A stretch of 64,000 nucleotides of DNA from positions 86,126 to 150,125 of the forward strand of contig JAVCCK010000034.1 of NCBI GenBank assembly GCA_030765525.1, read 5' to 3'. The position numbers and the translations under genes were made by a program. Of this stretch, positions 24,686 through 48,595 are shown piece by piece. The stretch is from Candidatus Lernaella stagnicola. Its GTDB lineage: Bacteria > Lernaellota > Lernaellaia > Lernaellales > Lernaellaceae. Position 1 is the first letter of the stretch, and every line of letters starts with the position of its first letter. The notes beneath the pieces are model-generated. The model was not told the DNA's origin and ran no database searches. It saw nothing but the letters and a program-made list of their open reading frames with translations.

Positions 24686-24766
24686 TCCAACGCCTCCGGG
24701 TAATTCGCGTTCGGTTAGCCTTTGGTATGCCAGCACGCGATTTGTGTCAACTCGTCTATAACACGC

Positions 24767-28380: not shown

Positions 28381-29415
28381 TTGAAGCGACGCATTCGGCC
28401 GATCTTGGTGATAGCAGCAATCGTTTTGGCGCTCGTTTCGTGCCAAACGGCGCAAAAGAAAAACGAGTTAGTACAAACCGAACTCGCGTGGTGGGAAAAT
28501 GCGCAGGCTCCCGAAGACGAGCAGGCGATCCGCGAGCGCGCCAAGGATATGCTCGACACCATCCGCAAGCGCCGCCCGGTGTACCGCATCGGCCCGGAAG
28601 ATATGTTGCGAGTCGCCATTTGGAACCGCCCGGACCTGAGCAAAGAGGGCCGGGTGCGCAACGACGGTATCTTCTTCCTACCCCTGATCGGCAACATCAA
28701 GGCCGACGGCTTGTCGGTCGCAGAGCTTCAAACCGTGCTCCGCGAAAAATTCGGCCGCCTACTTCGCGATCCGCAGGTTGACGTCGAGATCATCGAATAC
28801 GGCAGCAAGGTCTATTACGTATTCGGGCAGGTCTACAAACCGGGCGTGTATCCCGTCAAAGCCACCAGCTCCGTGCTCGAGGGTGTGGCCGGGGCCGGCG
28901 GCACGACCGAAAAGGCGAACCTCGGCGCAGCCTATCTCATCCGTGCCGGCACGGTTGTGCCGATCGATTTCTACCGCCTGTTCGAACGCGGCGACATCGG
29001 CCAAAACCTATTGCTGGCCGACGGCGACATCATCTACGTGCCCGACATTGCCGACTCCAAGGTGTACGTGCTGGGCGAAGTAAACGCCGCGACCGCAGTA
29101 CCGATGCGCGGCACTCGCATGCGGCTTTCCGAAGCGGTCGCGATGGCCGGGGGCTTCAACGAGATCACCGCCTTCAAGCGCGGCATCAAAATCATTCGCG
29201 GCGGTTTAGGCAATCCCCGCGTGTACACGGTCAATTACGAAGACATTCGCCGCGGCAAGGTGCCGGATATCGCCTTTTTACAGAACGGCGACATCGTGTA
29301 CGTGCCCGCCGGCGGGCTAACGAAATGGGACCGCGTAATGGGTCAATTGTTACCCAACTTGAGCCGCATCATCGTCGATGCGGCGGCGATCGACTCGCTG
29401 ACGGGAAACCGCTAA
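28381..29415 (+). CDS. Wza-like polysaccharide export lipoprotein (polysaccharide biosynthesis/export domain + SLBB)
   Basis: TTG start with lipoprotein signal MKRRIRPILVIAAIVLALVSC. The Poly_export motif is YRIGPEDMLRVAIWNRPDLSKEGRVRNDGIFFLPLIGNIKADGLSVAELQ, followed by SLBB-like repeats. Confidence 0.8.
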   Translation: MKRRIRPILVIAAIVLALVSCQTAQKKNELVQTELAWWENAQAPEDEQAIRERAKDMLDTIRKRRPVYRIGPEDMLRVAIWNRPDLSKEGRVRNDGIFFLPLIGNIKADGLSVAELQTVLREKFGRLLRDPQVDVEIIEYGSKVYYVFGQVYKPGVYPVKATSSVLEGVAGAGGTTEKANLGAAYLIRAGTVVPIDFYRLFERGDIGQNLLLADGDIIYVPDIADSKVYVLGEVNAATAVPMRGTRMRLSEAVAMAGGFNEITAFKRGIKIIRGGLGNPRVYTVNYEDIRRGKVPDIAFLQNGDIVYVPAGGLTKWDRVMGQLLPNLSRIIVDAAAIDSLTGNR

Positions 29416-29418
29416 ACG

Positions 29419-31743
29419 ATGGAACTGAGCTACCGCACCAAAGACGTGCAGATTTCCGATTACTTCCGCGTGCTCTTTCGCCGCCGGGTCGTCGTCTTGC
29501 TCACGTTCCTGGCCGTCTTCTTGTCGGTGTTGATCCACACCTTCCTCATGACGCCCATCTTCGAAGCCTTCGCCACGGTGCAAGTTAAGGAAGAGCAAAC
29601 CCAGACGATGCTGCTGGGCGAACTGGGGCGCTTCGGGCGAGCCAACACCGTCAAGGCCGAGATGGAGATCATCAAGAGCCGCACCATCGCCGAAGCCGTC
29701 GTGCGCGAACTGCACCTCGACCTTTTGGTCGTCGACCAAAGCCGGGGCCTCCAGGTCGATCTGAAAAACGTCAACCTTCCCTTGGATCAGCGCGGGCGCA
29801 CGTTCGACGTCGAATTCCTCAATGAGCAAGGACGCTTCGAGGTGTCCTACAAAGGCGACAAGCTCGGCGAAGGATCGCTGGAAGCCGGTTGTCACGAAAA
29901 GGAATTGCACTTCGACGTGGAGGTCGCGGGCGATCCGCCGCAAGCGGGCGACGGGTTCAAATTCGTGCAGCGCCCGTTTGCCGCGGTCGTGCGCATGGTG
30001 CAAAACAGTTTGGATGTCGTCGAGGTCGGCGACCGCACCAATATCATCAAGATATCTTATCGCAGCCAATATCGCGACATGGCGCGCGACATCGTCAACA
30101 AATCGGTCGAGGTCTACCAGCAGAAGGACATTGAGTACAAGAGCAGCGAAGCGGGCAACACGGTCGGTTTCATTGAGAGCCAGATCGAAGCGATTTCCCG
30201 CAACCTGGGCGACTTCGAGCAGAGTTTGCAGGAGTACAAGAAAGACCAGGGAATTATCGAGTTGTCCGCCGAGGCCGGTACGCTGATCGACGCCATCGCC
30301 GATTTCGAAGTGCAACGCTCCCAGTTGGAGATCGAACGCTATCGCTATGCGGCGATGCTGCAATCGATCAAAAAGTACGGTGTCGAAACCGCCTCGTTGC
30401 CCAGCCTGTCATCCGCCCAAGACACTGTTTTGACCGGACTCGGCCAGATATTGGCCGAACTCAAAAGCAAGAAGAGTTCCTTGTTGATCGAACTGAAACC
30501 CGAACACCCCCAGGTTAAAGCGGTCACGCAGGAAATCCAGGCCATTGGTTCGCAGATCGCCGCGATTCTCGCGCAAACCACCAAGACCCTGGATTCGCGG
30601 TTGACCAAATTGGGGCAGGTCATCGACAAGTACAACCAGAAAATCAGCGTTCTGCCCGCGACAGAGCGCAAGCTGGCGGAACTGAAACGCTCGACTGAAG
30701 TCACGAGTCAGATATACACCTTTTTACTGGAAAAGCAGCAGGAAGCCCGCATCGCGCAGGCGTCCGAGATCAGCAACATCCGCGTGATCGATTTGGCGGT
30801 GACGCCCAGCACGCAGATCAAGCCGAATATCCGACTCAATCTACTCCTCGGAATTGTCGCCGGGTTGTTGCTGGCCATCGGTGTCGCGTTCTTCTTGGAA
30901 TTCATCGACGACTCCCTCAAGTCGATCGAGGAAGTCGAGCGCTTCGTGCGCCGGCCGGTCTACGGCATCATTCCGCGCATTCCGGATTACCGTAAGGACG
31001 AAGAAGGCGGTCGCACCGTCGCGTCGGCGCTGGTAACGCACTACAGCCCGAAGAGCCCCATTTCGGAAGCTTTTCGCACGCTGCGTACGAATATCCATTT
31101 CGCCGATCCCGACCAAAAACTGCACACGTTGCTGATCACCAGCGCCGGGCCGAGCGAGGGAAAGTCGACGATCGTTTCCAACCTCGCGCTGACCTTCGCC
31201 AACACCGGCCGCAAAACCCTGCTGATCGACTGCGACCTGCGCAAACCGAATATGCAAAACATTTTTGAGATTGAACGGGATCCCGGCCTGACCACCGCAC
31301 TGCTCGGCGAAAAGCCCTGGCAGGAAGTCGTCGTAAAAACGAAGGTCGACAACCTGTTCATCATGCCCTCCGGGCCGATTCCGCCCAATCCCACGGAACT
31401 ACTGGGCAGCCAGCAAATGAAAGACGTGATCGCTTTGCTGAGAAGTGAGTTCGACCTCATCTTGTTTGACAGCCCGCCGGTCATCGCCGTGACCGACGCG
31501 GCGATTCTTTCCTCGGTGGTCGACGCCACGTTCATTGTCGTCGAACTCGGCCGCAGCCGGGGCACGGCGGTCAATCGCGCGATCGGCCTGCTGGAGAAAG
31601 TCAAAGCCAACTTGCTGGGTGTCGTGACCAACAATATCTTCGCCGGCTATCGCTACGATTACGGCTATTACAGCTACTACTATTACTACGCCGACGGCGG
31701 TCAGAAAAAGAAGCGGCGGCGGCGCACGCGATACGGGTACTAG
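29419..31743 (+). CDS. polysaccharide co-polymerase / tyrosine autokinase (Wzc/GumC-type chain-length determinant)
   Basis: The N-terminal Wzz-like TM region and long coiled-coil periplasmic domain are present, with a second TM helix LLLGIVAGLLLAIGVAFFL. The C-terminal BY-kinase domain has Walker A ITSAGPSEGKSTIVSNLAL and a tyrosine cluster GYRYDYGYYSYYYYYADGG. The 3-nt gap to the Wza-like gene suggests an operon. Confidence 0.85.
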   Translation: MELSYRTKDVQISDYFRVLFRRRVVVLLTFLAVFLSVLIHTFLMTPIFEAFATVQVKEEQTQTMLLGELGRFGRANTVKAEMEIIKSRTIAEAVVRELHLDLLVVDQSRGLQVDLKNVNLPLDQRGRTFDVEFLNEQGRFEVSYKGDKLGEGSLEAGCHEKELHFDVEVAGDPPQAGDGFKFVQRPFAAVVRMVQNSLDVVEVGDRTNIIKISYRSQYRDMARDIVNKSVEVYQQKDIEYKSSEAGNTVGFIESQIEAISRNLGDFEQSLQEYKKDQGIIELSAEAGTLIDAIADFEVQRSQLEIERYRYAAMLQSIKKYGVETASLPSLSSAQDTVLTGLGQILAELKSKKSSLLIELKPEHPQVKAVTQEIQAIGSQIAAILAQTTKTLDSRLTKLGQVIDKYNQKISVLPATERKLAELKRSTEVTSQIYTFLLEKQQEARIAQASEISNIRVIDLAVTPSTQIKPNIRLNLLLGIVAGLLLAIGVAFFLEFIDDSLKSIEEVERFVRRPVYGIIPRIPDYRKDEEGGRTVASALVTHYSPKSPISEAFRTLRTNIHFADPDQKLHTLLITSAGPSEGKSTIVSNLALTFANTGRKTLLIDCDLRKPNMQNIFEIERDPGLTTALLGEKPWQEVVVKTKVDNLFIMPSGPIPPNPTELLGSQQMKDVIALLRSEFDLILFDSPPVIAVTDAAILSSVVDATFIVVELGRSRGTAVNRAIGLLEKVKANLLGVVTNNIFAGYRYDYGYYSYYYYYADGGQKKKRRRRTRYGY

Positions 31744-31745
31744 TC

Positions 31746-32966
31746 GTGAAGTTCCTGATCGTTATTCCGGCCCTCAACGAAGAGCAGGCCGTTCGCGCCA
31801 TCATCGAACGCTGCCTCGCCGCGCGCCCGGCCATCATCGCGCAAACCCCCGTCGACGAAGTAGACATCACCGTCGTCTCTGACGGCTCCAGTGACCGCAC
31901 GCCCGAAATCGCCGCCGAATACACGGACCGAATCACCCTCGTGAGCTATCGCGTCAATCGCGGCTACGGCGCGGCGATCAAGCTCGGCTGGTCTAATTCG
32001 GATGCCGAACTCGTGGGGTTCCTCGACGCCGACGGCACGTGCGATCCGCTCTTTTTCGTCGACTTGATCAACAAACTCGTCGGCGACGAACTGAATGTCG
32101 TGCTCGGTTCACGGATGGGCGAGGACAGTGAAATGCCCAAAGTGCGCCGGTTCGGCAACCGGGTGTTCGCCGCGATCATCAACCTGATCGCCCGCGCGAA
32201 AATTTCCGACTCGGCCTCCGGGATGCGCGTGGTGCGCCGCGAAAGCCTCCCGCGTCTATATCCGTTGCCCGACGGCCTGCACTTCACGCCCGCGATGAGT
32301 TGCAAGGCAGTGCTCGATCCGCAATTGAAGATCGGCGAAGTGCCGATGACCTACGCCGAACGCCTGGGCGAATCCAAACTTTCGGCCCTCAAAGACGGCG
32401 TGCGTTTTCTACGGATCATCCTCGACATCGCCATGACGTACCGGCCCTTCCGCGTGTTCGGCGTGATCGGGATAGTTTTTTTGCTCCCGGCGCTCTTTTT
32501 CGGCGCAGACCTGGTGGCCAATTACTTCGCTTCGGGCCACGTCCCCGACGGCATGATCTACCGCGTGCTTGCCGTCGTCGTGCTCGGCTTTGCCGGTTTG
32601 CTGATCATGGGCGCCGGGATGATCGCCGAGGGCGTGGTCGAATTGCGCAATCCGTGGATTCGCCCGCACGGCGCGTTCTATCGCTTAGTGCGTCGCGTGA
32701 CGCAGTCCGACGCCATGCTGACGTTGGCCGGGATCGTCCTGCTGGCGGCGCTCGTATTCGTGGCGCGACCGGCCGTTCAATACGTGCTGACCGGTCACAT
32801 TGCGGCGCACTGGTCGCAAGTGGCGCTGGCCGGCGCGATGTTTTTGCTGGCCGTGCAGTTGACCGTGCTGGCGGGGCTGCAACGCATGCTCGCCACCATG
32901 CTCGCTACCGAGACCGATGACGTCGACCCTCGCTTCGACAAGGAGCAAGTGCTTGGCAAGGACTGA
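31746..32966 (+). CDS. family 2 glycosyltransferase with C-terminal multi-TM domain (polyprenyl-phosphate sugar transferase-like)
   Basis: GTG start. The GT2 motifs are MKFLIVIPALNEE, VVSDGSSDRT and FLDADGTCDP. Four hydrophobic helices follow (FGVIGIVFLLPALFF...). Confidence 0.75.
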   Translation: MKFLIVIPALNEEQAVRAIIERCLAARPAIIAQTPVDEVDITVVSDGSSDRTPEIAAEYTDRITLVSYRVNRGYGAAIKLGWSNSDAELVGFLDADGTCDPLFFVDLINKLVGDELNVVLGSRMGEDSEMPKVRRFGNRVFAAIINLIARAKISDSASGMRVVRRESLPRLYPLPDGLHFTPAMSCKAVLDPQLKIGEVPMTYAERLGESKLSALKDGVRFLRIILDIAMTYRPFRVFGVIGIVFLLPALFFGADLVANYFASGHVPDGMIYRVLAVVVLGFAGLLIMGAGMIAEGVVELRNPWIRPHGAFYRLVRRVTQSDAMLTLAGIVLLAALVFVARPAVQYVLTGHIAAHWSQVALAGAMFLLAVQLTVLAGLQRMLATMLATETDDVDPRFDKEQVLGKD

Positions 32967-34419
32967 CCGCGGGCGCGTCGCCCTTGTCAATGCGCCGTTT
33001 CTGCCGCGCTTTTCCCGCTCCCAACGAAGCCCGGGCGTCATCAAAAGCAACGTGCTCTACTACCCCTATTGGCTGGCCCACGCCGCCGCCTTGCTGCAGC
33101 GCGAAGGCTTCGTCGTCGATCTGCTTGACGCCCCCGCGCTAGGCCTCGATTCGACGCCCGCCGTCGATCACGTCGTGAGCTTTCAACCCGACCTCGTATT
33201 GGTCGAAACCAGCACGCCGTCCATCGCCGCCGATCGCGCCTACGCCGTCGAAGTCAAAAACAAGATGCCGGAAGCCGCCGTGTTCCTGGTCGGTACGCAC
33301 GTCACCGCGCAGCCCATACAAACCCTGGGCGACTCGCCGCTCGACGGCGCCCTGCTCGGCGAGTACGACTTCACAGCCCTCGAACTTGCGCGCGTCGTCG
33401 TCGCCGGCGGCAACCGCGCCGACGTGCCGGGTGTGGCGGTTTGCGGCGCGAGCGGCGGCGAAATTGGCGCAACACGCGCTCTGATCGAAAACCTGGACGA
33501 ACTGCCGTGGATCGCCCCGATCTACAAGCAGTTTCTGCCGATCGAGGCATACAACTTCAGTCTCGCCCATCACCCGATGGTGATGCTGATCAGCGGCCGC
33601 GGCTGCCCCAACAATTGCTTCTTCTGCCTGTATCCACAGGTGATGCACGGCCGGCGCTTTCGTGCCCGCAGCCCTGAGCACGTCGTCGGCGAACTGGAGT
33701 ATGTCGCCACGCAGATGCCCGGCGTGCGGGAAATCGTATTCGAAGACGACACCTTCACCGCCGACGAAACCCGCGCCATACAAATCGCCGAACTGAAAAT
33801 GCAGCGCGGCGTCAAGCTGCCGTTTTTCGCCAACCTGCGCGTCAATACCGAACCGGAGACCGTGCGCGCCCTGGTGCGGGCCGGGCTGCGCAGTTGCGCC
33901 GTGGGCTTTGAATCCGCCGGCGAAAAGGCGCTGGAGCGCATGAAAAAAGGCATATCGCTCGAGCGCGCCAAACGCTTCATGCAGATCGCCCGCGCCGAGG
34001 GGTTACTGGTACACGGCTGCTTCATGGTGGGGTTTCCGGGAGAGACGCGCGAGACCATGGCGCACACGCTACGTTACGCCATCGAACTCGAGCCTGATTC
34101 CGCGCAGTTTTATCCGGTGTTTCCGTACCCGGGAACCGAGGCGTACGAGTGGGCCGAACGAAACGGGTATCTCAGTACGCACGACTTTCGCAAATGGCTG
34201 ACGCCCGCCGGCCATCACGCGGCGGTGATTGATCTGCCCGGCCTGTCGCATCAGGAGCAATGGGCGTTTTGTGAAAAGGCGTACCGGCGATTCCATTTTC
34301 GCCCGCGCTACCTGGTACGCAAACTCGTCCAGGCGATTCGGCGGCCCGCGGAAGGATGGCGAAGTCTGCGCGGATTGTTCGCGTACCTGCGTTATCTCGT
34401 TGGGCGGAGAGCGTCATGA
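32917..34419 (+). CDS. B12-binding domain radical SAM protein (class B rSAM)
   Basis: The B12-binding fold is RVALVNAPFLPRF...VVDLLDAP...PDLVLVETST...VFLVGTHVTAQP. The rSAM core is MLISGRGCPNNCFFCLYPQV. The most probable start is TTG ~32953 (AAGGAG 7 nt upstream) rather than the ORF-track ATG 32917. Embedded between two GT2 genes. Confidence 0.8.
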   Translation: MTSTLASTRSKCLARTDRGRVALVNAPFLPRFSRSQRSPGVIKSNVLYYPYWLAHAAALLQREGFVVDLLDAPALGLDSTPAVDHVVSFQPDLVLVETSTPSIAADRAYAVEVKNKMPEAAVFLVGTHVTAQPIQTLGDSPLDGALLGEYDFTALELARVVVAGGNRADVPGVAVCGASGGEIGATRALIENLDELPWIAPIYKQFLPIEAYNFSLAHHPMVMLISGRGCPNNCFFCLYPQVMHGRRFRARSPEHVVGELEYVATQMPGVREIVFEDDTFTADETRAIQIAELKMQRGVKLPFFANLRVNTEPETVRALVRAGLRSCAVGFESAGEKALERMKKGISLERAKRFMQIARAEGLLVHGCFMVGFPGETRETMAHTLRYAIELEPDSAQFYPVFPYPGTEAYEWAERNGYLSTHDFRKWLTPAGHHAAVIDLPGLSHQEQWAFCEKAYRRFHFRPRYLVRKLVQAIRRPAEGWRSLRGLFAYLRYLVGRRAS

Positions 34420-35435
34420 AACGGGTGACGGTTGCCGTACTCGCTTACAACGAAGAGGCCAATTTGCCGGACCTGCTCGGCAGCTTGGCGGCGCAAACCT
34501 TACCGCAAGACCAATTCGATATTCTTATCGTCGATAACGGCAGTTCCGACCGCACGCGCGAGATCGCCGAACAGTGGCAAAGCCCCTTGAACAACCTGCG
34601 CGTGGTCGTTCAACCCGTACCGGGCATCGCCGTTTCCCGCAATTGCGCGCTGGCGGAAGCGACCACGGCGTTGATTGCGTTCACCGACGCCGATGTCATT
34701 TGTCCGCCCGGTTGGCTGCAAACGCTGGTCGAGGGTTTCGATCGGCACCACGCACGCGACGAGCATGTTGTGGCCGTGGGTGGCGGCAACACGCCCGTGT
34801 CGGGGCAGGGCGCTTTTCTCACGGCGATCGGCATCACGCTAAATAGTTTCTGGGGCAGTCACGGCAGCGTGCAGGGCATGATCTACACCGACGATCGGGA
34901 CGTGGAGCACATTCCGACGCTCAATATTTGCTACGACCGGGAGCGGGTGCGCGCCGCGGGCGGGTTTGACGAAGATTTCCGCATGGTCAGCGAAGATCCG
35001 GAACTCAATCACCGGCTGACGCGCCGCCACGGGTACAAAATCGTTTTTCTCGCCGGGGCCGAGGTGGAGCACAAAATGCGGCCGGACCTGAAAAGTTGGT
35101 GGCGCAACGTGTACATGTACGGTCGCGGGCGCACGCAGATCATCAAGAAGCACCCCGATCATCTCCAGTGGAAGTACATGGTGCCGCCGGTATTGCTGGC
35201 GGTCTTGGCGTTGATCCCACTGGGATTGGTGCATCCGCTATTTTGGCTGCCGGCCGTGTATTGGATTGCGCCGCTGCCCATCGCCGCGTACTTGTGCCTG
35301 CGCGCCGGGAAACCCACGTTGACGCCGCTGGCCTACCTCATTTTGGTCGGCAATCCCGTTTTCTACGGATTGGGCATGATCCACGGCCTGTGGTTTCGCT
35401 ACGAACCCGTTAGCCCGCGCTGCGTTGACCCATAA
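34416..35435 (+). CDS. family 2 glycosyltransferase
   Basis: MKRVTVAVLAYNEEANLPDLL...ILIVDNGSSDRT...AFTDADVICPPGWL (DxD-like), with two C-terminal TM helices. The ATG overlaps the TGA of the upstream rSAM gene (ATGA). Confidence 0.8.
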   Translation: MKRVTVAVLAYNEEANLPDLLGSLAAQTLPQDQFDILIVDNGSSDRTREIAEQWQSPLNNLRVVVQPVPGIAVSRNCALAEATTALIAFTDADVICPPGWLQTLVEGFDRHHARDEHVVAVGGGNTPVSGQGAFLTAIGITLNSFWGSHGSVQGMIYTDDRDVEHIPTLNICYDRERVRAAGGFDEDFRMVSEDPELNHRLTRRHGYKIVFLAGAEVEHKMRPDLKSWWRNVYMYGRGRTQIIKKHPDHLQWKYMVPPVLLAVLALIPLGLVHPLFWLPAVYWIAPLPIAAYLCLRAGKPTLTPLAYLILVGNPVFYGLGMIHGLWFRYEPVSPRCVDP

Positions 35436-36124: not shown

Positions 36125-39100
36125 CTAAACCTTTGATAATTCGCGGGATTCCTGTGATTGAAGGCGTTTACGCAATTCTTCGGTCAATCGTCCGATTCGT
36201 TCGTGGGCGCCGCGATTGTGGCCGAGATTGTCGCAGGCTTGGTAGCAGCCGATGACCGAAAAGTACGGATCCGATTTGGGTGTCGTCAGGGCTTTTCGGC
36301 GAAATTCCCGATAGGTCTCGCCGGTCCAAATCGTGCGGAAGTCGGCCTCGTGCAGGTTGCCCATGGGCAGGTCGTCGGCTTTGCAGCACGGAATGACCGA
36401 GCCGTCGGTTTTCACGCGGGCGTAGGTCCAGCCGATGGAGCAGGGGATTTTGTCCACCATTTCCGCGTCGTACCCCGAGCCTTCACCGGCCTGGATGCGT
36501 CGCAGGAACACGCCGTAACCGAGGAAGCTCAGGAATTCCACTTTGATCGCATAGCGCTCTTTGTCGATGGCGCACTGCGGATTATCGGGGCAGCGTTCGC
36601 ACTCGTGACGCGGATAGTAAAAAATGAGCGCGTTTTCCACGACGTTGTCTTCTTCGATTTCCAGCCGCCATTCCTTGCGGTGACACAAGACGTCGAATCG
36701 CGTGATGTCGTCGAGTTCGTAGCGGAAGCCGCCGGGCAGCAGGCTGCGCTTGACGAAGCGCGCGAATTCCAGCCCCTCGCCGTCGGCGTCCTGTCGCTTA
36801 GCACCGCGCGTGGGGTCGAGTTCGAGGTAGTCTTCGCGCTTGGGCAGATCGTTGAGCTGCCGCACGATTTCGGCGCGATCGGCCTCGGTCAGCGCCAGCG
36901 AATCGGTGTAGCCGGGCACGATGTCGATGGGCGTGAACTCGACGTACTCGGCCAGCGATTCAACGGCGAAGGAGACCATGTTCGCCACGTCATGGGCGTT
37001 CGTGTGACAGACGACGTGGTAGACCTTCACTTGCGGTTGGAAGCTATTGCGCTCGGCTTTGAGCCGGTGCAAGAGCTGGAGAGACTCCATGATTCGGCGC
37101 AGCGTCTTCGGCTGCTGATTCGGATGCACGGCGGCGTACACTTCGGGCGATCCCGCCCACACGCTCACCGTCAGGTGGTCGACGCCCGCCTCGACCAGGC
37201 CTTCGCAAACTTTTTCCGTCAGCAACGTGCCGTTGGTGATGACGGTGCATTCCAGGCCGCGCGCTTTGACTCGGCGGATGATCTCCATGGCATCGGTGTG
37301 GCAAAGCGGGTCGCCCGCGCCGGAAAGTTGCACGTGTTTGGCGCCCAATTCGGCCGCGTCGTCGATCAATCGCAGCACCAATTCGGTGGGTAGGTGTTGC
37401 TGTTTTTCCTCGCCGGTCATTCGCCGTTCGGCGAGCAGTGGCGAGTGGTTCCAGCAGCCGATGCAATCCAGGTTGCAGAAGTTGGTCAGGTCGATCTCGA
37501 AAATTTCGGGCCCGGCCAAGACTTCCTCGCCGTCCAGAATGCCTGCCAGGGCGAGGTTGTCTTCCACAAACGCCTGCGCCTCTTGGGCGGTAAGCGCGGC
37601 TTCCTCGACGGGCGCTTCAATTTCCGGCGCCGCCTCATCTTTAACCGGTTCCGGCATGATATAGCTGCAGCCCAGGGGGCCGGCGCGGTCACCCGCCTCG
37701 GGAATGTCGGTCTTGAACGAACGCAGGTCGTTGATCTCGTCGATCAGGATTTTCATGCGCTCTTCCATCGACAGTTCGGGGCGAAACTTCTCGACGACAC
37801 TCGCTTGCTTGCCTTCGGTGAGATTGGTCTCCCGCACTTCGACGTCCAACTCTTCGCAAAGCCGCAGCAGGGCGCGGATGCGGGCGTTGCGCACCGCCGG
37901 CGTGTTGGCACCGTCCAGGGACTCCCACAAGTAGTGATAATCCGTCTCCGGCAGGTGGATGCCGAACCGTTCCGGGTACACGTGCAAAGCCGTGCCGGTG
38001 ATCACGTGCATCGAGTTGATGCTCTTGATCTGGCCGATCCACGCCGCATTCTCGCGGATGAAATCGAGCGTCATCTGGAAATCATCGGCGGTCTCGCCCG
38101 GGAAACCCACGATGATGAACAAGCAGGTTTTGATGCCCGCCTCATGGCAGTCGCGGATGACGCGGCGGGCTTGCTCGACTTCGAAAAAGCGCAGTTTTCC
38201 CATGCGCTTGAGCACCGTGGGCGAGCCCGATTCGACGCCCCACTGCATTTCGTAGCAGCCCGCGGCCGCCATTTTATCCAGCAACTGCCTAGTCATGCCG
38301 GGCAGGGGGATGGCTTCGCCGTTCCAGCGGAATTCCAGCCCGGCGTCGATGATCCGGTCACAGAGTTCTTCGAGAATCACCACGTCACCGTTGAGCAGGT
38401 TGTCGGCGATCGTGAAATTGCGAAAGCCGTGCGTCTCCACATGACGGCGCAGTTCGCCGAATATGTGCTTGGCGCTGCGCATGCGAAAATCGCCGCTGAT
38501 CTGTTTGCCTTTGCAGTAGGTGCAGTTGGCGATGCAGCCGCGGCTCCATTCAAGGATCAGCGAATCGCCGGGGTACTGCTCGATGTCGAACTCGTCGTAA
38601 GTGGGCGGCGCGAGCGTGTCCAGGTCCATGATGGGGGCGCGCGGTGTGAAGCGGCATTCGCCTTGTTCGTCGAGAATCATCAGGCCGGGGATGTTCCGCA
38701 AATCCTCCCCGGCGCGCGTGCGTTCGACGATCTCCAGCAGCGTATTTTCACCTTCGCCGACCACGTAGCCGTCGATCAGGTCTCCGGCGCGGTCGATGAA
38801 AATTTGCCGGTATTCGGGCGTGAAGCACGCGGGACCGCCCAGGATGATGCGCGTGTCGCGATTGTGCTCGCGGAAACGCCGAATCACTTCCAGCGTGATG
38901 CGCTCTTTCGGGTCGACGACGCTGAAGCCGAGGATCGGCGGCGACAGGTCGACTAACTCCTCCACCGCTTGGTCAATTTGTCCCCGCAGACTGTGTTTGA
39001 CAACTTCGAAGGTCGTGTCGTTCGACCAGAAGTTCTTGTTCTCCACGTGCCACAGCATGCGGTATATCTCGTGGACGCCGTTGTAGAACTCGATGTTGAA

Positions 39101-42091
39101 ATCGCGCATCGCAGTGTGATAACCGCGCGCCCGCAGGAAGCTCGACAAATACGCCAGCCCCACCGGTGGGTTTTCGTAGCCCCAGGGGGGCAAGGTCACA
39201 AGCACGACATCCGGCGCCGGAGTGATTTTGCGCAGCAGGCGGTCGCGAATCTGTGTCTCGATTTTTCGAAACTCATGCCCCGGAGGCACGAAGAAATCGT
39301 AGTTGAATTTGACGTCCAGGCCCGCGACCCAAATCGCCATTTCCATCATGCGTTTTCGCCGCCAAGACGGATTGTTGTACGCCTTGTACGACCACGACTG
39401 GAAGTGCTTGCCCGGCGGCAGCAGAACGCCGTACGTGACGCAATCGCGCTCGAGCGCGCTGCCGGGCAGGATGTAGCAGGGCGTGACCTCGTCCACGTAG
39501 TCAATCGTGTCTTGAGCGTCATGCACCGCTTTGACCGTGGCGAGAAAATCCCGTTCGGTTTCGCCCGGGAAACCAACGAGCAGATTGACGTGCGTTTCGA
39601 TGCCCGCCGCGTGTGCCTGCCGCAGGTTATCTAGCGCGACTTGCCCGGTGTAACCCTTGTTCATGTGCGCCAAGAGTTCGTCGGAGAAACTTTCGACGCC
39701 GAAGCGTATCTTTGCGCAGCCGCCACGGGCCAACGTTTCGAAGAACGCCGCGTCCATCTCGACTCGCGGCGCCATGCGGCAGGTCCACCGGAAGGGCCGC
39801 CCGCTGTGGGCGATGCGTTCGGCCAGTTCGCGCAAAGCGTCGAGGTCGCCGTTGGCGATCAGGTCGGTGAAGTGAAACGTGAATACTTCCCACGTGTCGT
39901 GGTGGTCGCACATTTCCGCGAATACCGACGCCGCGCTGCGTGTGCGAAAACTTCCCTCCGCCGGTTGCTCGGCGCAAAACGCGCACCGGAAGCGGCAGCC
40001 GCGGCTCATGCGGATGGGCAACACCGGGCTTTCATAACGGTCCGGGCGAAATTCGCGGAAAGTCGGGTAGCCGATCACGTCCAGGTTGCGCAGTGGTTCG
40101 CGGGGCAAGAACTCGGGTTCGCCGTCCGGCCCCACCCAGCGTGCTCCGCGCAGAAACGCATTGCCGTCGCCGCGCCGATGCCGGCGAATGATTTCCACCA
40201 GCGTTCCTTCCGGCTGACCGATCAGCGCCAAGTCGCAAATGGCTTCGGGGAACAAGTCGCGCTCGGCGTCGATGCGTGTGGGGTCACCGCCGATGATCAG
40301 TTTGCGCGCCGGGTCGCGTTCGCGGATGGCCGTCATCACATCGCGAGTGACCAGCAAGTTGCCGCGCACGAGGTGGAAGTAAACGAGGTCCCCGGACGCC
40401 GCCAGGATTTGTTCGGCGAGCTTGGCGGGCGACAGGTCCAGTTTTTTGCGGAACGCCTCGTACGCGATGGGGTTCGCCCATTGATCGTGGCGCGGTAACT
40501 CCCACAGCTTTCGATCTTCCTCCGTGGCCCGCAGGTATTCCTGAATCGACAAATCCAGAGCGAAGGCTTTGAGACTGCGCCCGGCGAGGTAGGACGCAAT
40601 GGCCGCCAGTTCCAGCGGCGGGTGCGAGACGTCGAAGGGTGGGCACAGCACGAGCAGTAAGTCGTGGTCTTCGCCCGCCAGATGACTTGCCTCGTCGACA
40701 AAGCCGAGGTTGGTTTGCCGCACCGGTAAGCCGAGTCGATCCAACGCCGCTTTGACCCGCGTGAGGCGCTCGTGCCGCACTTGCGGCGTGTTGCCGTCCT
40801 GACCGATCCACGCAACTTCAAACCAGTCTGGGTCCACCGGCGGCAGAATGCCGTACTTCTCCGGCTTCTCCGCCAACACCGAATACTCGAGGATGTTGCA
40901 GGAATTGAGCACGGCGACTTCGTCGATCCACTCCGTGTTTGCTTCGACCCAAGCGATTGTTGCGTCCAAATGCGCTTCGGTCTCGCCCGGAAAACCGACG
41001 ACGAAATTGACCCAGGTCGTGATGCCCGCATCCTTGACCGCGCGCAACGTGTTCGTCGCGGCCTGGGCGGTCGTGCCTTTGTTCATCCATCGCAGCACAT
41101 CATTGCTGCCCGACTCGACACCCAGCGCCAACGTGTGACAGCCCGCGCGGCGCATCGCCCGGAGCGCTTCGGGTGTGAGTTTGTCGCTGATCGCCGCGTT
41201 AGCGTTCCAGCGAATGTCCAGACCGGCGTCTTCGAGCATCCCGCACAGGCTCACCACGTCGTCCACGATTTGCGTGATCTGCAGGTCGACGACCATGAAG
41301 TCGCGTTTGTCGAGTGTTTCGACGTGGTGCTGAATCTCGGCAAAAACATTTTCGGCCGACCGGCGGCGGAAACGCCCCATCAACACGCGGTCGTTGCACA
41401 GCGTGCAGCCCTTGGTGCAACCGCGGCTCATGGCCAGCGGCAGGTTGGGCGTCGCGTAGAGGGACAGGTCAAAATCGCTGAAATCGGGGAAGGGAAAATC
41501 GTCCAAGGTTTTGGCGACCGGCCGGTCGACACAAGGGCCGCCGGGCAACGCCACGCCCGCGATGTCTTCCGGCACCTCGCCGGCCACCAAGGCGCGGGCC
41601 GCTTCCACGACCGCCACTTCGCCTTCGCCGACGACAAAGGCGTCGACCAAGGCTTTCGGGAACGCGTTGCGGCTCGCTTCGCTGAACGCGCCGAGACCGC
41701 CGACGAGAATCTTGATGCCCGGCCGCCGCGCCCGCAAGCGCCGCATCAACTCGATGGTCACCGCGCGGTTGTCGCTGTGCACCGAGAAACCGGCCACCGC
41801 CGCGCCGCTTTCATCGATCTCGCGAGCCATGCGGTCAAAGGCGTCGCCGAATGCGGCGATCGTGCTGGGCACCCGGCTCTCCCAAACCCACGCGGCCTTG
41901 TGGGCCGGATCCCAAAGATGCCCCTGGCTCGCCTCAAACTCGCGATATAGCTCGATATTGAAATCACGCGCGCATACCGAAAAATCAGCGCGGCGCAATG
42001 CGGCGGTCACGCAGGCCAAACCCAGCGGCGGGCCCTCGGGCCCGAAGGGAGGCAAGATCGCTAAAAACATATCCGGTGCAGCTTTTACCAT
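36125..42091 (-). CDS. giant multi-domain radical SAM protein: three tandem B12-binding/radical-SAM modules + C-terminal SPASM/twitch-type radical SAM domain (~1990 aa)
   Basis: Continuous ORF with no stops. Module 1 is ILPPFGPEGPPLGLACV...AMSRGCTKGCTLCNDRVLMGRFRRRSAENVFAEI. Module 2 is LVLCPPFDVSHPPLELAAI...RMSRGCRFRCAFCAEQPAEGSFRTRSAASVFAEM. Module 3 is VLVTLPPWGYENPPVGLAYL...EWSRGCIANCTYCKGKQISGDFRMRSAKHIFGEL. The fourth domain is IDLTNFCNLDCIGCWNH...GAGDPL... plus a C-terminal Cys cluster (CERCPDNPQC, CSIGW, IPCC, GCYQAC). The start is assigned to Met (MVKAAPDMFLAILPP) just before module 1. The upstream in-frame 116 codons of ORF-track ORF 36125..42439 are low-complexity and run into the tRNA. 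Confidence 0.8.
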   Translation of the reverse strand: MVKAAPDMFLAILPPFGPEGPPLGLACVTAALRRADFSVCARDFNIELYREFEASQGHLWDPAHKAAWVWESRVPSTIAAFGDAFDRMAREIDESGAAVAGFSVHSDNRAVTIELMRRLRARRPGIKILVGGLGAFSEASRNAFPKALVDAFVVGEGEVAVVEAARALVAGEVPEDIAGVALPGGPCVDRPVAKTLDDFPFPDFSDFDLSLYATPNLPLAMSRGCTKGCTLCNDRVLMGRFRRRSAENVFAEIQHHVETLDKRDFMVVDLQITQIVDDVVSLCGMLEDAGLDIRWNANAAISDKLTPEALRAMRRAGCHTLALGVESGSNDVLRWMNKGTTAQAATNTLRAVKDAGITTWVNFVVGFPGETEAHLDATIAWVEANTEWIDEVAVLNSCNILEYSVLAEKPEKYGILPPVDPDWFEVAWIGQDGNTPQVRHERLTRVKAALDRLGLPVRQTNLGFVDEASHLAGEDHDLLLVLCPPFDVSHPPLELAAIASYLAGRSLKAFALDLSIQEYLRATEEDRKLWELPRHDQWANPIAYEAFRKKLDLSPAKLAEQILAASGDLVYFHLVRGNLLVTRDVMTAIRERDPARKLIIGGDPTRIDAERDLFPEAICDLALIGQPEGTLVEIIRRHRRGDGNAFLRGARWVGPDGEPEFLPREPLRNLDVIGYPTFREFRPDRYESPVLPIRMSRGCRFRCAFCAEQPAEGSFRTRSAASVFAEMCDHHDTWEVFTFHFTDLIANGDLDALRELAERIAHSGRPFRWTCRMAPRVEMDAAFFETLARGGCAKIRFGVESFSDELLAHMNKGYTGQVALDNLRQAHAAGIETHVNLLVGFPGETERDFLATVKAVHDAQDTIDYVDEVTPCYILPGSALERDCVTYGVLLPPGKHFQSWSYKAYNNPSWRRKRMMEMAIWVAGLDVKFNYDFFVPPGHEFRKIETQIRDRLLRKITPAPDVVLVTLPPWGYENPPVGLAYLSSFLRARGYHTAMRDFNIEFYNGVHEIYRMLWHVENKNFWSNDTTFEVVKHSLRGQIDQAVEELVDLSPPILGFSVVDPKERITLEVIRRFREHNRDTRIILGGPACFTPEYRQIFIDRAGDLIDGYVVGEGENTLLEIVERTRAGEDLRNIPGLMILDEQGECRFTPRAPIMDLDTLAPPTYDEFDIEQYPGDSLILEWSRGCIANCTYCKGKQISGDFRMRSAKHIFGELRRHVETHGFRNFTIADNLLNGDVVILEELCDRIIDAGLEFRWNGEAIPLPGMTRQLLDKMAAAGCYEMQWGVESGSPTVLKRMGKLRFFEVEQARRVIRDCHEAGIKTCLFIIVGFPGETADDFQMTLDFIRENAAWIGQIKSINSMHVITGTALHVYPERFGIHLPETDYHYLWESLDGANTPAVRNARIRALLRLCEELDVEVRETNLTEGKQASVVEKFRPELSMEERMKILIDEINDLRSFKTDIPEAGDRAGPLGCSYIMPEPVKDEAAPEIEAPVEEAALTAQEAQAFVEDNLALAGILDGEEVLAGPEIFEIDLTNFCNLDCIGCWNHSPLLAERRMTGEEKQQHLPTELVLRLIDDAAELGAKHVQLSGAGDPLCHTDAMEIIRRVKARGLECTVITNGTLLTEKVCEGLVEAGVDHLTVSVWAGSPEVYAAVHPNQQPKTLRRIMESLQLLHRLKAERNSFQPQVKVYHVVCHTNAHDVANMVSFAVESLAEYVEFTPIDIVPGYTDSLALTEADRAEIVRQLNDLPKREDYLELDPTRGAKRQDADGEGLEFARFVKRSLLPGGFRYELDDITRFDVLCHRKEWRLEIEEDNVVENALIFYYPRHECERCPDNPQCAIDKERYAIKVEFLSFLGYGVFLRRIQAGEGSGYDAEMVDKIPCSIGWTYARVKTDGSVIPCCKADDLPMGNLHEADFRTIWTGETYREFRRKALTTPKSDPYFSVIGCYQACDNLGHNRGAHERIGRLTEELRKRLQSQESRELSKV

Positions 42092-42396
42092 CCCACCAGG
42101 ATACTTATGGCCCAACGTGCTCACAAGCGCTTTTACGGTTACAATGTGAATCGATTGTTGAGAAGATCGATCGAGGGAACCGTGGCGGAGAGTTCGCGGT
42201 CGAAATGAATGAAACGAAGTTCGAAGGGATACGTGTCGCCGAATGCCCGCGCAGCCTGCGGGCGCGGCAGCGTTGTTGGAAACCTCCAGGCCGGTGGCAC
42301 GGACGGGCGGATCGGCCGGTGGAGGGCAACAATTTATCCCTGTTTGATAGTGACGAATTGCCGGGACGGGGCTGCCGTTAAGAGAGCGTAATGCTC

Positions 42397-42424: not shown

Positions 42425-42434
42425 CATCCACCGC

Positions 42435-47263: not shown

Positions 47264-48595
47264 TTATAGGGGGCCGGGCGTCAACTTTTCGGCGAGCTGT
47301 AAACCCATGGCAATTGAATGGTCCATGTTGTTGTACCAGAAGGTGCCCGTGCGGCCGGCGAGACTCAAATTGGCGACCCGCGCCATGCGATCTCGCAGAG
47401 CGGCAAGTTTTTCGTCATAACCGATATCATAAATAGGATAGGACTCGCGCACCTTTTCGATGTGTACTGCCACCACGTCCTGCCGGCCGGTGATCAAATC
47501 CACACGGATCAAGTCGTCGAGAACCTGATCTTGGAACGCTTCGGGATGATCCCAAGCCTCCGGCGGTGAGGATACTTCGACGCAGAGCCCGCTGCGGCCG
47601 CCGGCGATAATATCCGGGTCGAAGGCTTCGGGCCGACTTACTCGGGAAAAAACGAGATCCTGCGAGCCGAAGTAGCACCACTGAAATTCAGGCCCATGGT
47701 GCTTCGTGGTCACGACGTTGAAGCACACGAGGTTGAGGAAATGCAGGTCGGGTTTCGTTTCGCCGGCCATGTCGAGCAGCGCGGTGGGCGAAGCCGTCCA
47801 CACGACGTGCTTGGGCTGCCACGTCCGTCCTCCGGCGCGTACTTCGGTGATCCGCTCGTCGTTCAAAACGACGCCGTCCGCCGGGGTGCCCAACAAAACA
47901 TCGCCGCCCGCCGCCACGATACGGTCACGCAGCTTCTTCGCGAAAACATCGATTCCGCCGCGCGGATAGCGGAACTGAATCTCTGCACCCTTGGGCCGGA
48001 CGAACAAACTCTTGATCAATTCGAACAAGGTGTTGATCTTCAGCCGCTCGTCGATGATGGCCCGGTCGATGCCCGTTCTCGCCCAATCGGCGTGAGTTTC
48101 GCTCGGCGTGATGCCGAGGAATTTCGTCGAGTAGTCGCGGAAAAACGCACGGTACAAAGTGCGTCCGTACATGTTCAGGATGTAGTCTTCGAAGCTGCTC
48201 GGGCGGCGTTTGCGGTACAGGCGAAACAGCAGGTCGAGAACGACGCCAACGATCAAGCGCGGCGGCAACCGCAGCAAGTGCAGCGTCGGGTGAATCGGCC
48301 AGCGGTAGTAGTGCCGGAAGAAATACACGAGGCTGGTCCGCGGTATGTGCAAGACATCGTCGCCGAGGACTTCGTCGAGGAAGCGCAGCACCGTCTCGTC
48401 GGTCGTGTGAAAGCGGTGGGGGCCGATATCGAAATTGCCTTCCGGATAATGGAAGGTGCGCGCCAGGCCGCCCAGTTGGTCTTCGCGTTCGATCACCGTC
48501 ACGCGCGACCCGGCGGCGGCAAGCCGGTCGGCAACCGTCAAACCGCAAACCCCGGCGCCGACAATCAGAAAATCGGGTTGATGGTGTTCCGGCAA
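47264..48595 (-). CDS. FAD/NAD(P)-binding oxidoreductase (amine oxidase / UDP-galactopyranose mutase-like fold)
   Basis: DFLIVGAGVCGLTVADRLAAAGSRVTVIEREDQLGGLA is a Rossmann GxGxxG dinucleotide-binding motif followed by the GG motif. Confidence 0.7.
   Translation of the reverse strand: MPEHHQPDFLIVGAGVCGLTVADRLAAAGSRVTVIEREDQLGGLARTFHYPEGNFDIGPHRFHTTDETVLRFLDEVLGDDVLHIPRTSLVYFFRHYYRWPIHPTLHLLRLPPRLIVGVVLDLLFRLYRKRRPSSFEDYILNMYGRTLYRAFFRDYSTKFLGITPSETHADWARTGIDRAIIDERLKINTLFELIKSLFVRPKGAEIQFRYPRGGIDVFAKKLRDRIVAAGGDVLLGTPADGVVLNDERITEVRAGGRTWQPKHVVWTASPTALLDMAGETKPDLHFLNLVCFNVVTTKHHGPEFQWCYFGSQDLVFSRVSRPEAFDPDIIAGGRSGLCVEVSSPPEAWDHPEAFQDQVLDDLIRVDLITGRQDVVAVHIEKVRESYPIYDIGYDEKLAALRDRMARVANLSLAGRTGTFWYNNMDHSIAMGLQLAEKLTPGPL

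What the first reader, a model, noticed from the sequence alone, without database searches (positions are those of the whole stretch)
36125..42091. Single ~6 kb gene fusing three B12-binding radical SAM modules and a SPASM-type radical SAM domain
Read directly from the minus strand. One uninterrupted reading frame of ~1990 codons contains three consecutive ~500-aa units, each with a B12-binding Rossmann-like segment (…L/V-L-P-P-F/W-G…PP-G/L-E/GLA…) followed by a radical SAM core with its own CxxxCxxC (SRGCTKGCTLC, SRGCRFRCAFC, SRGCIANCTYC). After a ~120-aa acidic linker comes a fourth, different radical SAM domain (FCNLDCIGCWNH, GAGDPL) with a C-terminal auxiliary-cluster Cys array (CERCPDNPQC…CSIGW…IPCC…GCYQAC) typical of SPASM/twitch domains. 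Class B rSAM enzymes (e.g. Fom3, GenK, TsrM, PoyB/C, HpnJ) and SPASM enzymes normally occur as single-domain proteins. A covalent 3+1 assembly line of four radical-SAM catalytic centres is, to my knowledge, not a described architecture. It implies a multi-step, processive modification (e.g. iterative C-methylations plus a crosslink or oxidation) on one substrate. The gene sits next to a polysaccharide export/GT cluster, a tRNA-Thr gene and a small poly-Asp Cys-rich lipoprotein.
Basis: partly seen in the sequence, partly recalled or inferred. Interest (0 to 1): 0.92.

Follow-up and report, generated by a model that had tools for sequence, protein, structure and literature searches.

The report
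Four radical-SAM enzymes fused in one gene
One real 6-kb gene of an uncultured anaerobe (Candidatus Lernaella) joins three vitamin-B12-type radical SAM enzyme modules and a fourth iron-sulfur radical SAM module; relatives in many uncultured bacteria and archaea sit among sugar-polymer genes, which suggests an unstudied kind of glycan chemistry.

Summary
Window 36125-42091 (-) is one uninterrupted 1988-codon gene with four radical SAM cores. Three are B12-binding (class B) modules. The fourth is a BtrN/BlsE-like twitch/SPASM module.

It is not an assembly artefact. Twenty orthologs (46-74% identity) from independent assemblies keep the same order and all four CxxxCxxC motifs. The three B12 modules are only 30-34% identical to each other, and each forms its own clade.

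It is also not unique. It is one layout of a large, unnamed group of multi-module radical SAM proteins (BB, BBS, BBBB+S, SBBBBS, SSS and others) in Lernaellota/FEN-1099, Omnitrophota, Planctomycetia, Cloacimonadota, Methanosarcinales and Woesearchaeota MAGs. The modules are fused in some genomes and encoded by adjacent genes in others.

The neighbourhoods are dominated by glycan assembly and export genes, not by RiPP genes:
- No conserved precursor ORF or RRE was found.
- The poly-Asp lipoprotein is not a conserved partner.
- The apparent TIGR03975 "RiPP methyltransferase" hit comes from summing three weak module scores.

My best reading is a cytoplasmic multi-step tailoring enzyme for a lipid- or nucleotide-linked sugar of an envelope glycan. 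The chemistry is unknown, and I found no paper describing this architecture.

The parts
36125..42091 (-). Whole CDS, 1988 aa plus stop: module order B12-rSAM 1, B12-rSAM 2, B12-rSAM 3, linker, twitch/SPASM-type rSAM ('BBBS')
   Evidence: Uninterrupted frame. 100% identical to P0001, 'radical SAM protein [Candidatus Lernaella stagnicola]'. 20 orthologs share the architecture. The start at 42091 is supported by ortholog N-termini.
40658..42091 (-). Module 1 (aa 1-478): B12-binding Rossmann domain (Pfam hit aa 86-164, nt 41600-41836) plus radical SAM core; CTKGCTLC at aa 225-232 (nt 41396-41419)
   Evidence: Pfam B12-binding 44.6 bits and Radical_SAM 80 bits. Best NCBIfam is TIGR03975 at 142 bits, below the 281.85 cutoff. 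The Cys triad is invariant in orthologs.
39197..40657 (-). Module 2 (aa 479-965): B12-rSAM-like, the most diverged module; CRFRCAFC at aa 699-706 (nt 39974-39997)
   Evidence: Radical_SAM 74.9 bits. B12-binding only 19.7 bits, below the 32.1 cutoff. 30-32% identical to modules 1 and 3. The Cys triad is invariant.
37772..39196 (-). Module 3 (aa 966-1440): B12-rSAM, the best conserved module; CIANCTYC at aa 1186-1193 (nt 38513-38536)
37532..37771 (-). Linker (aa 1441-1520): acidic, poorly conserved, no domain hit
   Evidence: No Pfam family. On average only 0.41 of orthologs keep the window's residue in this segment, against 0.57-0.67 in the modules.
36128..37531 (-). Module 4 (aa 1521-1988): radical SAM core (CNLDCIGC at aa 1539-1546, nt 37454-37477), a ~170-aa insert with 4 invariant Cys (aa 1803-1840, nt 36572-36685), and a twitch-type auxiliary-cluster Cys set (aa 1884-1953, nt 36233-36442)
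28381..35435 (+). Convergent neighbouring operon, probably the same functional cluster: Wza-like 28381-29415, Wzc-like 29419-31743, GT2 (polyprenyl-P-sugar-synthase-like) 31746-32966, HpnJ-like B12-rSAM 32917-34419, GT2 34356-35435
   Evidence: Pfam and NCBIfam hits. The synteny is kept in orthologous loci L001, L004, L009-L012. Homologs of the HpnJ-like gene lie directly upstream of module-4-type genes in Omnitrophota/Planctomycetia operons and in L022 and L043.
47264..48595 (-). Amine-oxidase/NAD_binding_8 flavoprotein; possible distant member of the same system (weak)
   Evidence: Full-length homolog (24% identity, E 2e-34) of the flavoprotein that opens the Wzm-Wzt-B-SSS operons of Omnitrophota.

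Best explanation
The gene encodes a cytoplasmic, oxygen-sensitive enzyme with four radical SAM active sites.

Shown:
- There are three class-B-type modules (Rossmann plus radical SAM barrel) that diverged from one another long ago, followed by a BtrN/BlsE-like twitch/SPASM-type module.
- All four [4Fe-4S]-binding Cys triads and all auxiliary Cys are conserved.
- The same set of module types is found fused in some lineages and as adjacent genes in others. That is the pattern of proteins that work together, as with FbiC versus CofG+CofH.

Inferred:
- The modules carry out successive tailoring steps on one carbohydrate-containing precursor of an envelope glycan. The precursor is most likely a polyprenyl-phosphate-linked or nucleotide-linked sugar made by the adjacent GT2 / HpnJ-like rSAM / GT2 genes.
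- The finished glycan is then exported by Wza/Wzc here, and by Wzm/Wzt in other phyla.

Speculative:
- The B12 modules would each perform a different C-alkylation (methylation) or rearrangement at an unactivated carbon.
- Module 4 would perform an oxidation, decarboxylation or epimerisation of the BtrN / BlsE / DesII type.
For: Reality and conservation:
- The frame is open and the domain hits are clear.
- 20 orthologs at 46-74% identity have identical module order and motif positions.
- All catalytic and auxiliary Cys are invariant.
- Modules are 30-34% identical to each other, and each position forms an exclusive clade in a 182-module tree.

Functional coupling of module types:
- 41 of 48 loci that carry a module-4-type gene have B12-rSAM modules fused or within 10 kb.
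- Layouts include BBBS, BBS, SBBBBS, BBBB+S+S+S, BBB+B+S+S and B+SSS+BBB.

Glycan context:
- The most frequent neighbour families are GT2 (15 loci), Wzt-like ABC ATPase (12), GT1-family (9), Wzm (9), GT4 (8) and PMT_2 (5).
- 34 of 48 loci hold at least one such gene.
- Module-4-like domains are fused to GT4 glycosyltransferases (P0073, P0075-77), and B12 modules are fused to a GT2 (P0059).
- L007 and L056 add NDP-sugar epimerase/dehydratases, carbamoyltransferases and an SGNH esterase.
- In the BBBS orthologs themselves, 7 of 12 loci abut the GT2/rSAM/GT2/Wzc/Wza operon. Three have a PMT_2 (GT-C) gene within 10 kb; in L003 and L008 it lies directly downstream on the same strand.
- The window's HpnJ-like rSAM has full-length homologs next to module-4 genes in other phyla.
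- GT2 31746-32966 most resembles polyprenyl/dolichyl-phosphate sugar synthases such as AglJ and ArnC.

Structural neighbours:
Against: - In the window the giant gene is convergent with the glycan operon, not co-transcribed with it.
- Two orthologous loci (L002/L017 and L014) have no recognisable glycan gene nearby.
- Many of the loci come from related lineages, so the counts overstate independent support. GT genes are also common in any genome.
- The top NCBIfam hits of the B12 modules include RiPP and protein methylases (TIGR03975, ApyD, QCMT).
- Cobalamin binding cannot be read from sequence. AprD4, an equally good structural match, has this fold but, from my own recollection of the AprD4 literature and not from any tool result here, does not use B12. 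Module 2's B12-domain score is sub-threshold.
- No substrate, product or expression data exist.
Confidence: 0.55

Rival explanations
1. RiPP or protein maturase: the B12 modules C-methylate a ribosomal peptide or protein (PoyC/QCMT-like), and the SPASM-type module installs a crosslink or epimerisation.
For: - The whole-protein TIGR03975 'RiPP maturation radical SAM C-methyltransferase' score is 356 bits, above the 281.85 cutoff.
- ApyD and QCMT families are among the top module hits.
- QCMT is module 3's best structural match.
- SkfB, SuiB and PqqE are close structural matches of module 4.
Against: - The TIGR03975 score is the sum of three sub-threshold modules (142, 89 and 137 bits).
- No PqqD/RRE domain or any other domain is found in the linker or elsewhere.
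- No conserved small ORF flanks the gene in 12 orthologous loci.
- No RiPP-type peptidase or exporter recurs. The recurrent neighbours are glycosyltransferases and glycan exporters.
- The poly-Asp lipoprotein is exported and is conserved only in the nearest relative.
Confidence: 0.12
2. Lipid tailoring: the modules methylate, cyclise or crosslink an isoprenoid or other membrane lipid (like HpnR, GrsA/B or Tes), possibly the lipid part of a glycolipid or of the polyprenyl carrier.
For: - The recurrent flavoprotein neighbour resembles HpnE/CrtI-type desaturases as much as it resembles UDP-galactopyranose mutase.
- The neighbouring rSAM is HpnJ-like.
- MBOAT and GDSL genes lie near the paralog class.
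Against: - All these family scores are far below their cutoffs.
- No lipid-synthesis genes (prenyltransferases, squalene/hopene cyclase, GGGP synthase) were seen among the recurrent neighbours.
- Direct fusions are to glycosyltransferases and carbamoyltransferases, which are sugar-tailoring enzymes.
Confidence: 0.15
3. Artefact: an assembly chimera, collapsed paralogs, or a frameshift-masked run of four ordinary genes.
For: The window comes from a metagenome-assembled genome, and no read data could be inspected.
Against: - The same 4-module ORF is found in 20 independent cluster representatives from JGI, ENA, NCBI and Logan assemblies, with contigs up to 1.47 Mb.
- It is also found in about ten GTDB species genomes.
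- The modules are only 30-34% identical, and the longest internal DNA repeat is 37 nt.
- Inter-module junctions are conserved in register.
Confidence: 0.02

Closest known systems
Class B (cobalamin-dependent) radical SAM enzymes: QCMT/MgmA (9CCB), TsrM, CysS, TokK, OxsB; also the B12-less look-alike AprD4
   Different: - Sequence relationship is remote. The best PDB hit has E 3.5e-13, and no NCBIfam cutoff is reached.
- The known enzymes are single-module proteins, whereas here three diverged modules are fused in tandem.
- Substrate and reaction are unknown, and B12 use is unproven.
Twitch/SPASM radical SAM enzymes acting on carbohydrates: BtrN (2-deoxy-scyllo-inosamine dehydrogenase), BlsE (cytosylglucuronate decarboxylase), DesII
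   Different: - Module 4 carries a ~170-aa insert with four further invariant Cys that is absent from those enzymes and from short relatives of module 4.
- It lacks the canonical SPASM CX2CX5CX3C block after the hairpin.
- It is fused to, or adjacent to, B12-rSAM modules.
FbiC (FO synthase): CofG and CofH fused
   Same: This is a precedent for two radical SAM domains in one polypeptide that are separate genes in other organisms, acting on one pathway (PMC11917521). The fused-versus-split logic is the same as BBBS versus BBBB+S.
   Different: FbiC has two domains, neither of them B12-type or SPASM-type, and is unrelated in sequence. Here there are four radical SAM domains, and up to six in relatives.
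HpnI/HpnJ/HpnK-type glycolipid head-group remodelling (hopanoid cyclitol ether pathway)
   Same: The neighbouring operon pairs GT2 glycosyltransferases with an HpnJ-like B12-rSAM. TIGR03471 aligns over the full length at 354 bits.
   Different: The score is below the 577.6 cutoff. No hopanoid genes were seen in the window. The giant protein's own modules are not HpnJ-like, scoring 70-85 bits per module.
TIGR03975 / PoyB,C-type RiPP radical SAM C-methyltransferases
   Same: This is the best-scoring named family for modules 1-3.
   Different: Each module scores 89-142 bits against a cutoff of 281.85. No precursor peptide or RiPP context was found.

Membership tests
Radical SAM superfamily (PF04055) | CxxxCxxC motif within a partial TIM-barrel core that matches PF04055 above the gathering score | tested here: met
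   Four separate matches of 75-85 bits each (cutoff 29.5). The motifs at aa 225, 699, 1186 and 1539 are invariant in 20 orthologs.
Class B (cobalamin-dependent) radical SAM | N-terminal B12-binding Rossmann domain (PF02310) preceding the radical SAM core | tested here: met
Class B (cobalamin-dependent) radical SAM | Actual binding and use of cobalamin | not testable with these tools
   AprD4 matches module 3 as well as QCMT and TsrM do. From my own recollection, not from any tool result here, AprD4 has this fold without using B12, so sequence and fold alone cannot settle the question.
TIGR03975 RiPP maturation radical SAM C-methyltransferase | A single catalytic unit scoring above the curated cutoff (281.85 bits) | tested here: not met
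   The modules score 141.7, 88.9 and 137.0 bits separately. The 356-bit whole-protein score is their sum.
TIGR03975 RiPP maturation radical SAM C-methyltransferase | Association with a precursor peptide gene or RiPP cluster | tested here: not met
   No conserved small ORF lies within 700 nt either side of the gene in 12 orthologous loci. No RRE/PqqD domain was found. The neighbours are glycan genes.
SPASM domain (PF13186 / TIGR04085), two auxiliary clusters | Match to the SPASM model | tested here: met
   PF13186 scores 47.2 bits (cutoff 21.5) at aa 1884-1933.
SPASM domain (PF13186 / TIGR04085), two auxiliary clusters | Canonical seven-Cys pattern CX9-15GX4C ... CX2CX5CX3C ... C downstream of the core | tested here: not met
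   CX12GX4C is present (C1884...C1902). It is followed only by CX3C (C1949, C1953). A CX2CX5C block (C1831, C1834, C1840) plus C1803 lies upstream, in an insert.
Twitch-domain radical SAM (BtrN-like, one auxiliary cluster) | Four-Cys auxiliary site in a beta-hairpin/helix C-terminal extension homologous to BtrN | tested here: met
   The profile hit to BtrN residues 165-227 has E 1.5e-11. C1884 and C1902 align with BtrN Cys. NF033640 'twitch domain-containing radical SAM' matches the same stretch. C1884, C1902, C1949 and C1953 are invariant. Cluster binding itself was not tested.
HpnJ (TIGR03471), for the neighbouring gene 32917-34419 | Score above the equivalog cutoff of 577.6 bits | tested here: not met
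   It scores 354.3 bits with full-length alignment, so it is HpnJ-like but not HpnJ.

The most novel reading that the evidence does not exclude
The protein is the fused form of a widespread, unrecognised radical SAM 'tailoring line' of anaerobic bacteria and archaea. This line would install several C-C bond modifications (for example C-methylations or ring rearrangements) and a redox step on sugars of envelope glycans or glycolipids. That would be a class of polysaccharide chemistry with no characterised example. The number of modules (2 to 9 per locus) would set the number of modifications.
Probability: 0.3. Interest if true: 0.85.

Novelty: new variant of a known kind. Interest (0 to 1): 0.64.

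Why it matters
Radical SAM enzymology has been built almost entirely on single-module enzymes. A conserved polypeptide with four radical SAM centres, probably six or more Fe-S clusters and up to three cobalamins raises several questions: how reducing equivalents, SAM and the substrate are shared between sites, and whether intermediates are channelled.

The comparative data turn one odd gene into a testable system. The same module set is fused or split across at least ten phylum-level lineages, including archaea, and it sits in glycan assembly and export clusters. If the substrate is a sugar, this would reveal unknown C-alkylated or rearranged glycans on the surfaces of abundant uncultured anaerobes (Omnitrophota, Lernaellota, DPANN, Methanosarcinales).

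It also shows an annotation trap. Summing three weak module scores pushes the protein over the cutoff of a RiPP methyltransferase family to which no single module belongs.

Tried and rejected
- **Assembly artefact or collapsed paralogs.** Rejected: only motif-length DNA repeats, low inter-module identity and 20 independent orthologs.
- **Recent internal duplication.** Rejected: each module position is an exclusive clade.
- **RiPP maturase.** I looked for RRE/PqqD domains, conserved small ORFs and RiPP neighbours and found none.
- **Poly-Asp lipoprotein as partner or substrate.** It is present only in the window and in L001, has its own promoter-like site, and acidic tracts are common in this organism's secreted proteins.
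- **Riboswitch control (cobalamin or SAM) in the 343-nt upstream region or elsewhere.** Rfam finds only the tRNA.
- **Named-family assignment.** No module reaches any NCBIfam cutoff.
- **Literature.**
  - Phrases for multiple, tandem or fused radical SAM domains returned only FbiC and an irrelevant hit.
  - The 2026 B12-rSAM review and the RadicalSAM.org paper do not mention such fusions.
  - The paper describing Ca. Lernaella never mentions radical SAM.
  - A search for cobalamin-rSAM plus polysaccharide returned nothing relevant.
- **Technical dead ends.**
  - The search for related loci with the 18-sequence alignment A1 failed because no stretch was conserved enough. It worked with A2.
  - The Lernaella paralog P0037 is not on record for a context look-up.
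  - Two translate-frame errors occurred.
Full report
**1. The observation**

The minus strand of window 36125-42439 is open for 2104 codons from a GTG. Ortholog N-termini (M-x6-9-L-x-I/L-x-PPFGPEGPP) support the ATG at 42091, which gives 1988 aa. NCBI's own model of the same gene (P0001, 'radical SAM protein', Candidatus Lernaella stagnicola, contig 356 kb) starts seven codons later and is 100% identical.

Four CxxxCxxC motifs lie at aa 225, 699, 1186 and 1539. Pfam finds four Radical_SAM matches. It also finds B12-binding domains in modules 1 and 3 above threshold and in module 2 below threshold (19.7 against 32.1 bits), and a SPASM match at aa 1884-1933.

GC content is even. The longest internal DNA repeats are 24-37 nt and correspond to conserved protein motifs spaced one module apart. 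The linker is about 80 aa rather than about 120 aa. The auxiliary Cys array is not a canonical SPASM (section 3).

**2. Not an artefact, and an old fusion**

A search of 5.8 billion proteins returned 20 full-length orthologs (1929-2064 aa, 46-74% identity) from JGI, ENA, NCBI and Logan assemblies, on contigs up to 1.47 Mb. One is from Ca. Alcyoniella australis. All have the order M1-M2-M3-linker-M4, with the four motifs at matching positions.

- The three B12 modules are only 30-34% identical to each other.
- In a neighbour-joining tree of 182 B12 modules from 64 homologs, the M1, M2 and M3 modules of the 20 orthologs each form an exclusive clade. The triplication therefore predates the orthologs' divergence, and each position has kept its own identity.
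- All twelve radical SAM Cys and all nine auxiliary Cys of module 4 are invariant.
- The linker is the least conserved segment.

**3. What the modules are**

No single module reaches the curated cutoff of any NCBIfam family.

- Modules 1-3 score best against TIGR03975 (RiPP C-methyltransferase) at 142, 89 and 137 bits, against a cutoff of 281.85. The next hits are PhpK, ApyD, QCMT, HpnJ, BchE and the 'ladderane lipid' family.
- Module 4 scores best against the tungsten-cofactor maturase family at 112 bits, against a cutoff of 380. The next hits are MoaA, PqqE and AhbD.
- The whole-protein TIGR03975 score of 356 bits is the sum of three sub-threshold modules and should not be read as family membership.

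An alignment of module 4 with stand-alone relatives shows three Cys groups:
- the radical SAM triad;
- four invariant Cys (C1803, C1831, C1834, C1840) in a ~170-aa insert that shorter relatives lack;
- a CX12GX4C ... CX3C set (C1884, C1902, C1949, C1953).

The first two Cys of the last set align with the twitch-domain Cys of BtrN. Module 4 is thus twitch-like, with an extra 4-Cys insert that could hold a further cluster or a metal ion.

**4. A large, modular, unnamed group**

Other homologs show many layouts, writing B for a B12-rSAM module and S for a module-4-type rSAM:
- BB, BBB, BBBB, BBS, BBBS, BBBSB, BSB and SBBBBS;
- a ~2300-aa class with an N-terminal rSAM/SPASM domain followed by four B modules, which includes a second Lernaella protein, P0037;
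- SSS proteins of 1300-1440 aa.

An exhaustive HMMER search of 1.84 billion cluster representatives was run with M3-linker-M4. Among the 142 further top representatives, 96 were multi-module and 40 fused B with S. Some of these may be fragments.

A scan of one genome per GTDB species with a module-4 alignment found 47 loci. They come from FEN-1099/Lernaellota, Omnitrophota, Planctomycetia, Cloacimonadota, Wallbacteria, UBP17, Desulfatiglandales, Caldisericota, Thermoanaerobaculia, Methanosarcinales and a Woesearchaeota-type archaeon. All are MAGs.

In 41 of 48 loci the module-4-type gene is fused to, or within 10 kb of, B12-rSAM modules. Examples:
- Methanosarcinales MAGs encode BBBB, then S, S, S as separate adjacent genes.
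- Archaeon AR15 encodes BBB, B, S, S.
- Omnitrophota and Planctomycetia encode Wzm, Wzt, an HpnJ-like B, SSS, then further B modules.

This fused-or-adjacent pattern has the same logic as FbiC versus CofG+CofH (PMC11917521). It argues that the modules act in one pathway.

**5. Context points to carbohydrates, not peptides**

I clustered all neighbour proteins of these loci and annotated the largest clusters. The counts were:

| Neighbour family | Loci |
|---|---|
| GT2 | 15 |
| Wzt-like ABC ATPase with long C-terminal extension | 12 |
| GT1-family | 9 |
| Wzm ABC-2 permease | 9 |
| Amine-oxidase/NAD_binding_8 flavoprotein | 9 |
| GT4 | 8 |
| PMT_2 (GT-C) | 5 |
| PAPS-reductase-like | 3 |

AsnB-type amidotransferases also recur.

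- Thirty-four of 48 loci have at least one glycan assembly or export gene.
- Module-4-like domains are covalently fused to GT4 glycosyltransferases (P0073, P0075-P0077).
- B modules are fused to a GT2 (P0059).
- In Ca. Alcyoniella the paralogous giant sits in one operon with a GT4-rSAM fusion, a carbamoyltransferase-rSAM fusion, two NDP-sugar epimerase/dehydratases, another carbamoyltransferase and an SGNH esterase.

For the BBBS orthologs themselves:
- Seven of twelve loci abut the convergent operon Wza-Wzc-GT2-(HpnJ-like B12-rSAM)-GT2, as in the window.
- Three have a PMT_2 gene within 10 kb. In L003 and L008 it lies immediately downstream on the same strand.
- Two have no recognisable glycan gene nearby.

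Three further links tie the window's genes to this system:
- The window's HpnJ-like rSAM (32917-34419) has full-length homologs directly upstream of the SSS gene in at least 14 Omnitrophota/Planctomycetia loci, and also in L022 and L043.
- The GT2 at 31746-32966 most resembles polyprenyl/dolichyl-phosphate sugar synthases such as AglJ and ArnC.
- The flavoprotein at 47264-48595 is homologous to the one that opens the Omnitrophota operons.

Against a RiPP role:
- No RRE or other domain is found in the linker.
- No conserved small ORF flanks the gene in twelve loci.
- No riboswitch or other RNA element is present.
- The poly-Asp lipoprotein is conserved only in the closest relative.

**6. Most likely mechanism**

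Shown: a conserved four-centre radical SAM protein whose module types are functionally coupled across phyla and embedded in glycan clusters.

Inferred: it tailors a lipid- or nucleotide-linked sugar in the cytoplasm before export. The three diverged B modules would do three different steps, and module 4 would do a BtrN/BlsE/DesII-type redox or decarboxylation step.

Speculative: the B steps are C-methylations.

I put about 0.55 on the glycan-tailoring reading, 0.15 on lipid tailoring, 0.12 on peptide or protein maturation and 0.02 on artefact. The remainder goes to something not considered here.

**7. Novelty**

The domains are known kinds. The 3+1 fusion, the module-4 subfamily with its 4-Cys insert, and the wider multi-module system are not described in any paper I could find. 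They carry only generic database names.

I rate it a new variant of a known kind. It is interesting to radical SAM enzymologists and to those studying the envelopes of uncultured anaerobes. The function is unproven, however, and the domain content is visible to any routine Pfam scan.

Noticed in passing
window 28381-35435 (+): A Wza/Wzc exopolysaccharide operon contains GT2, an HpnJ-like B12-radical SAM (TIGR03471 354 bits, below the 577.6 cutoff) and a second GT2, with overlapping gene ends. A cobalamin-type radical SAM enzyme embedded between glycosyltransferases in an EPS operon is itself unusual. It recalls HpnI/HpnJ head-group remodelling.
   Followed up: partly
window 35487-35912 (-), 22028-24106 (-), 24173-24940 (-); L001 16305-16757; L014 9981-11423: Secreted proteins and lipoproteins of this lineage carry long poly-Asp/acidic low-complexity tracts just after the lipobox Cys or at the C-terminus. 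One example is a subtilase-like protein ending ...DDDDDDDDNDDEDGGCGC. This looks like a lineage trait rather than something tied to the radical SAM gene.
   Followed up: partly
L030 9965-14287; L028 9950-13849; L037 9947-14233: Omnitrophota and Planctomycetia encode 1300-1440-aa proteins made of three tandem module-4-type radical SAM/SPASM units (SSS). They lie directly after Wzm, Wzt and an HpnJ-like 790-aa B12-rSAM.
   Followed up: partly
L028 4133-7573; L034 4805-7570; L030 5550-7610: Wzt-like ABC transporter ATPases in these operons have 450-900-aa C-terminal extensions with no Pfam match. These could be glycan-cap-binding modules.
   Followed up: no
L056 1-10004 (Ca. Alcyoniella australis, JAVCCG010000110.1): The operon has a GT4-rSAM/SPASM fusion (887 aa) and a carbamoyltransferase-rSAM/SPASM fusion (896 aa). 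It also has two NDP-sugar epimerase/dehydratases and a second carbamoyltransferase that is translationally coupled to a 2358-aa S+BBBB radical SAM giant.
   Followed up: partly
window 42435-42507 (+): tRNA-Thr(CGT) has a near-consensus sigma-70-like promoter at 42397-42424 (11 of 12 matches). It sits between the giant gene and the divergent PBP1A gene (42612-45005). The long ORF's GTG start at 42439 overlaps the tRNA and is not the real start.
   Followed up: yes
window 20358-21719 (+) and 1-987 (-): There are further radical SAM genes in the window. One is a MiaB/RimO-type methylthiotransferase (UPF0004 + Radical_SAM + TRAM). The other is a partial B12-rSAM-like ORF at the window edge.
   Followed up: partly
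L005 1-6725; L006 975-1826; L018 3-554: PAPS-reductase-like genes, and in L005 four sulfatase-family genes, lie next to stand-alone module-4 plus B12-rSAM genes. This hints at sulfated or otherwise activated glycans in some versions of the system.
   Followed up: no
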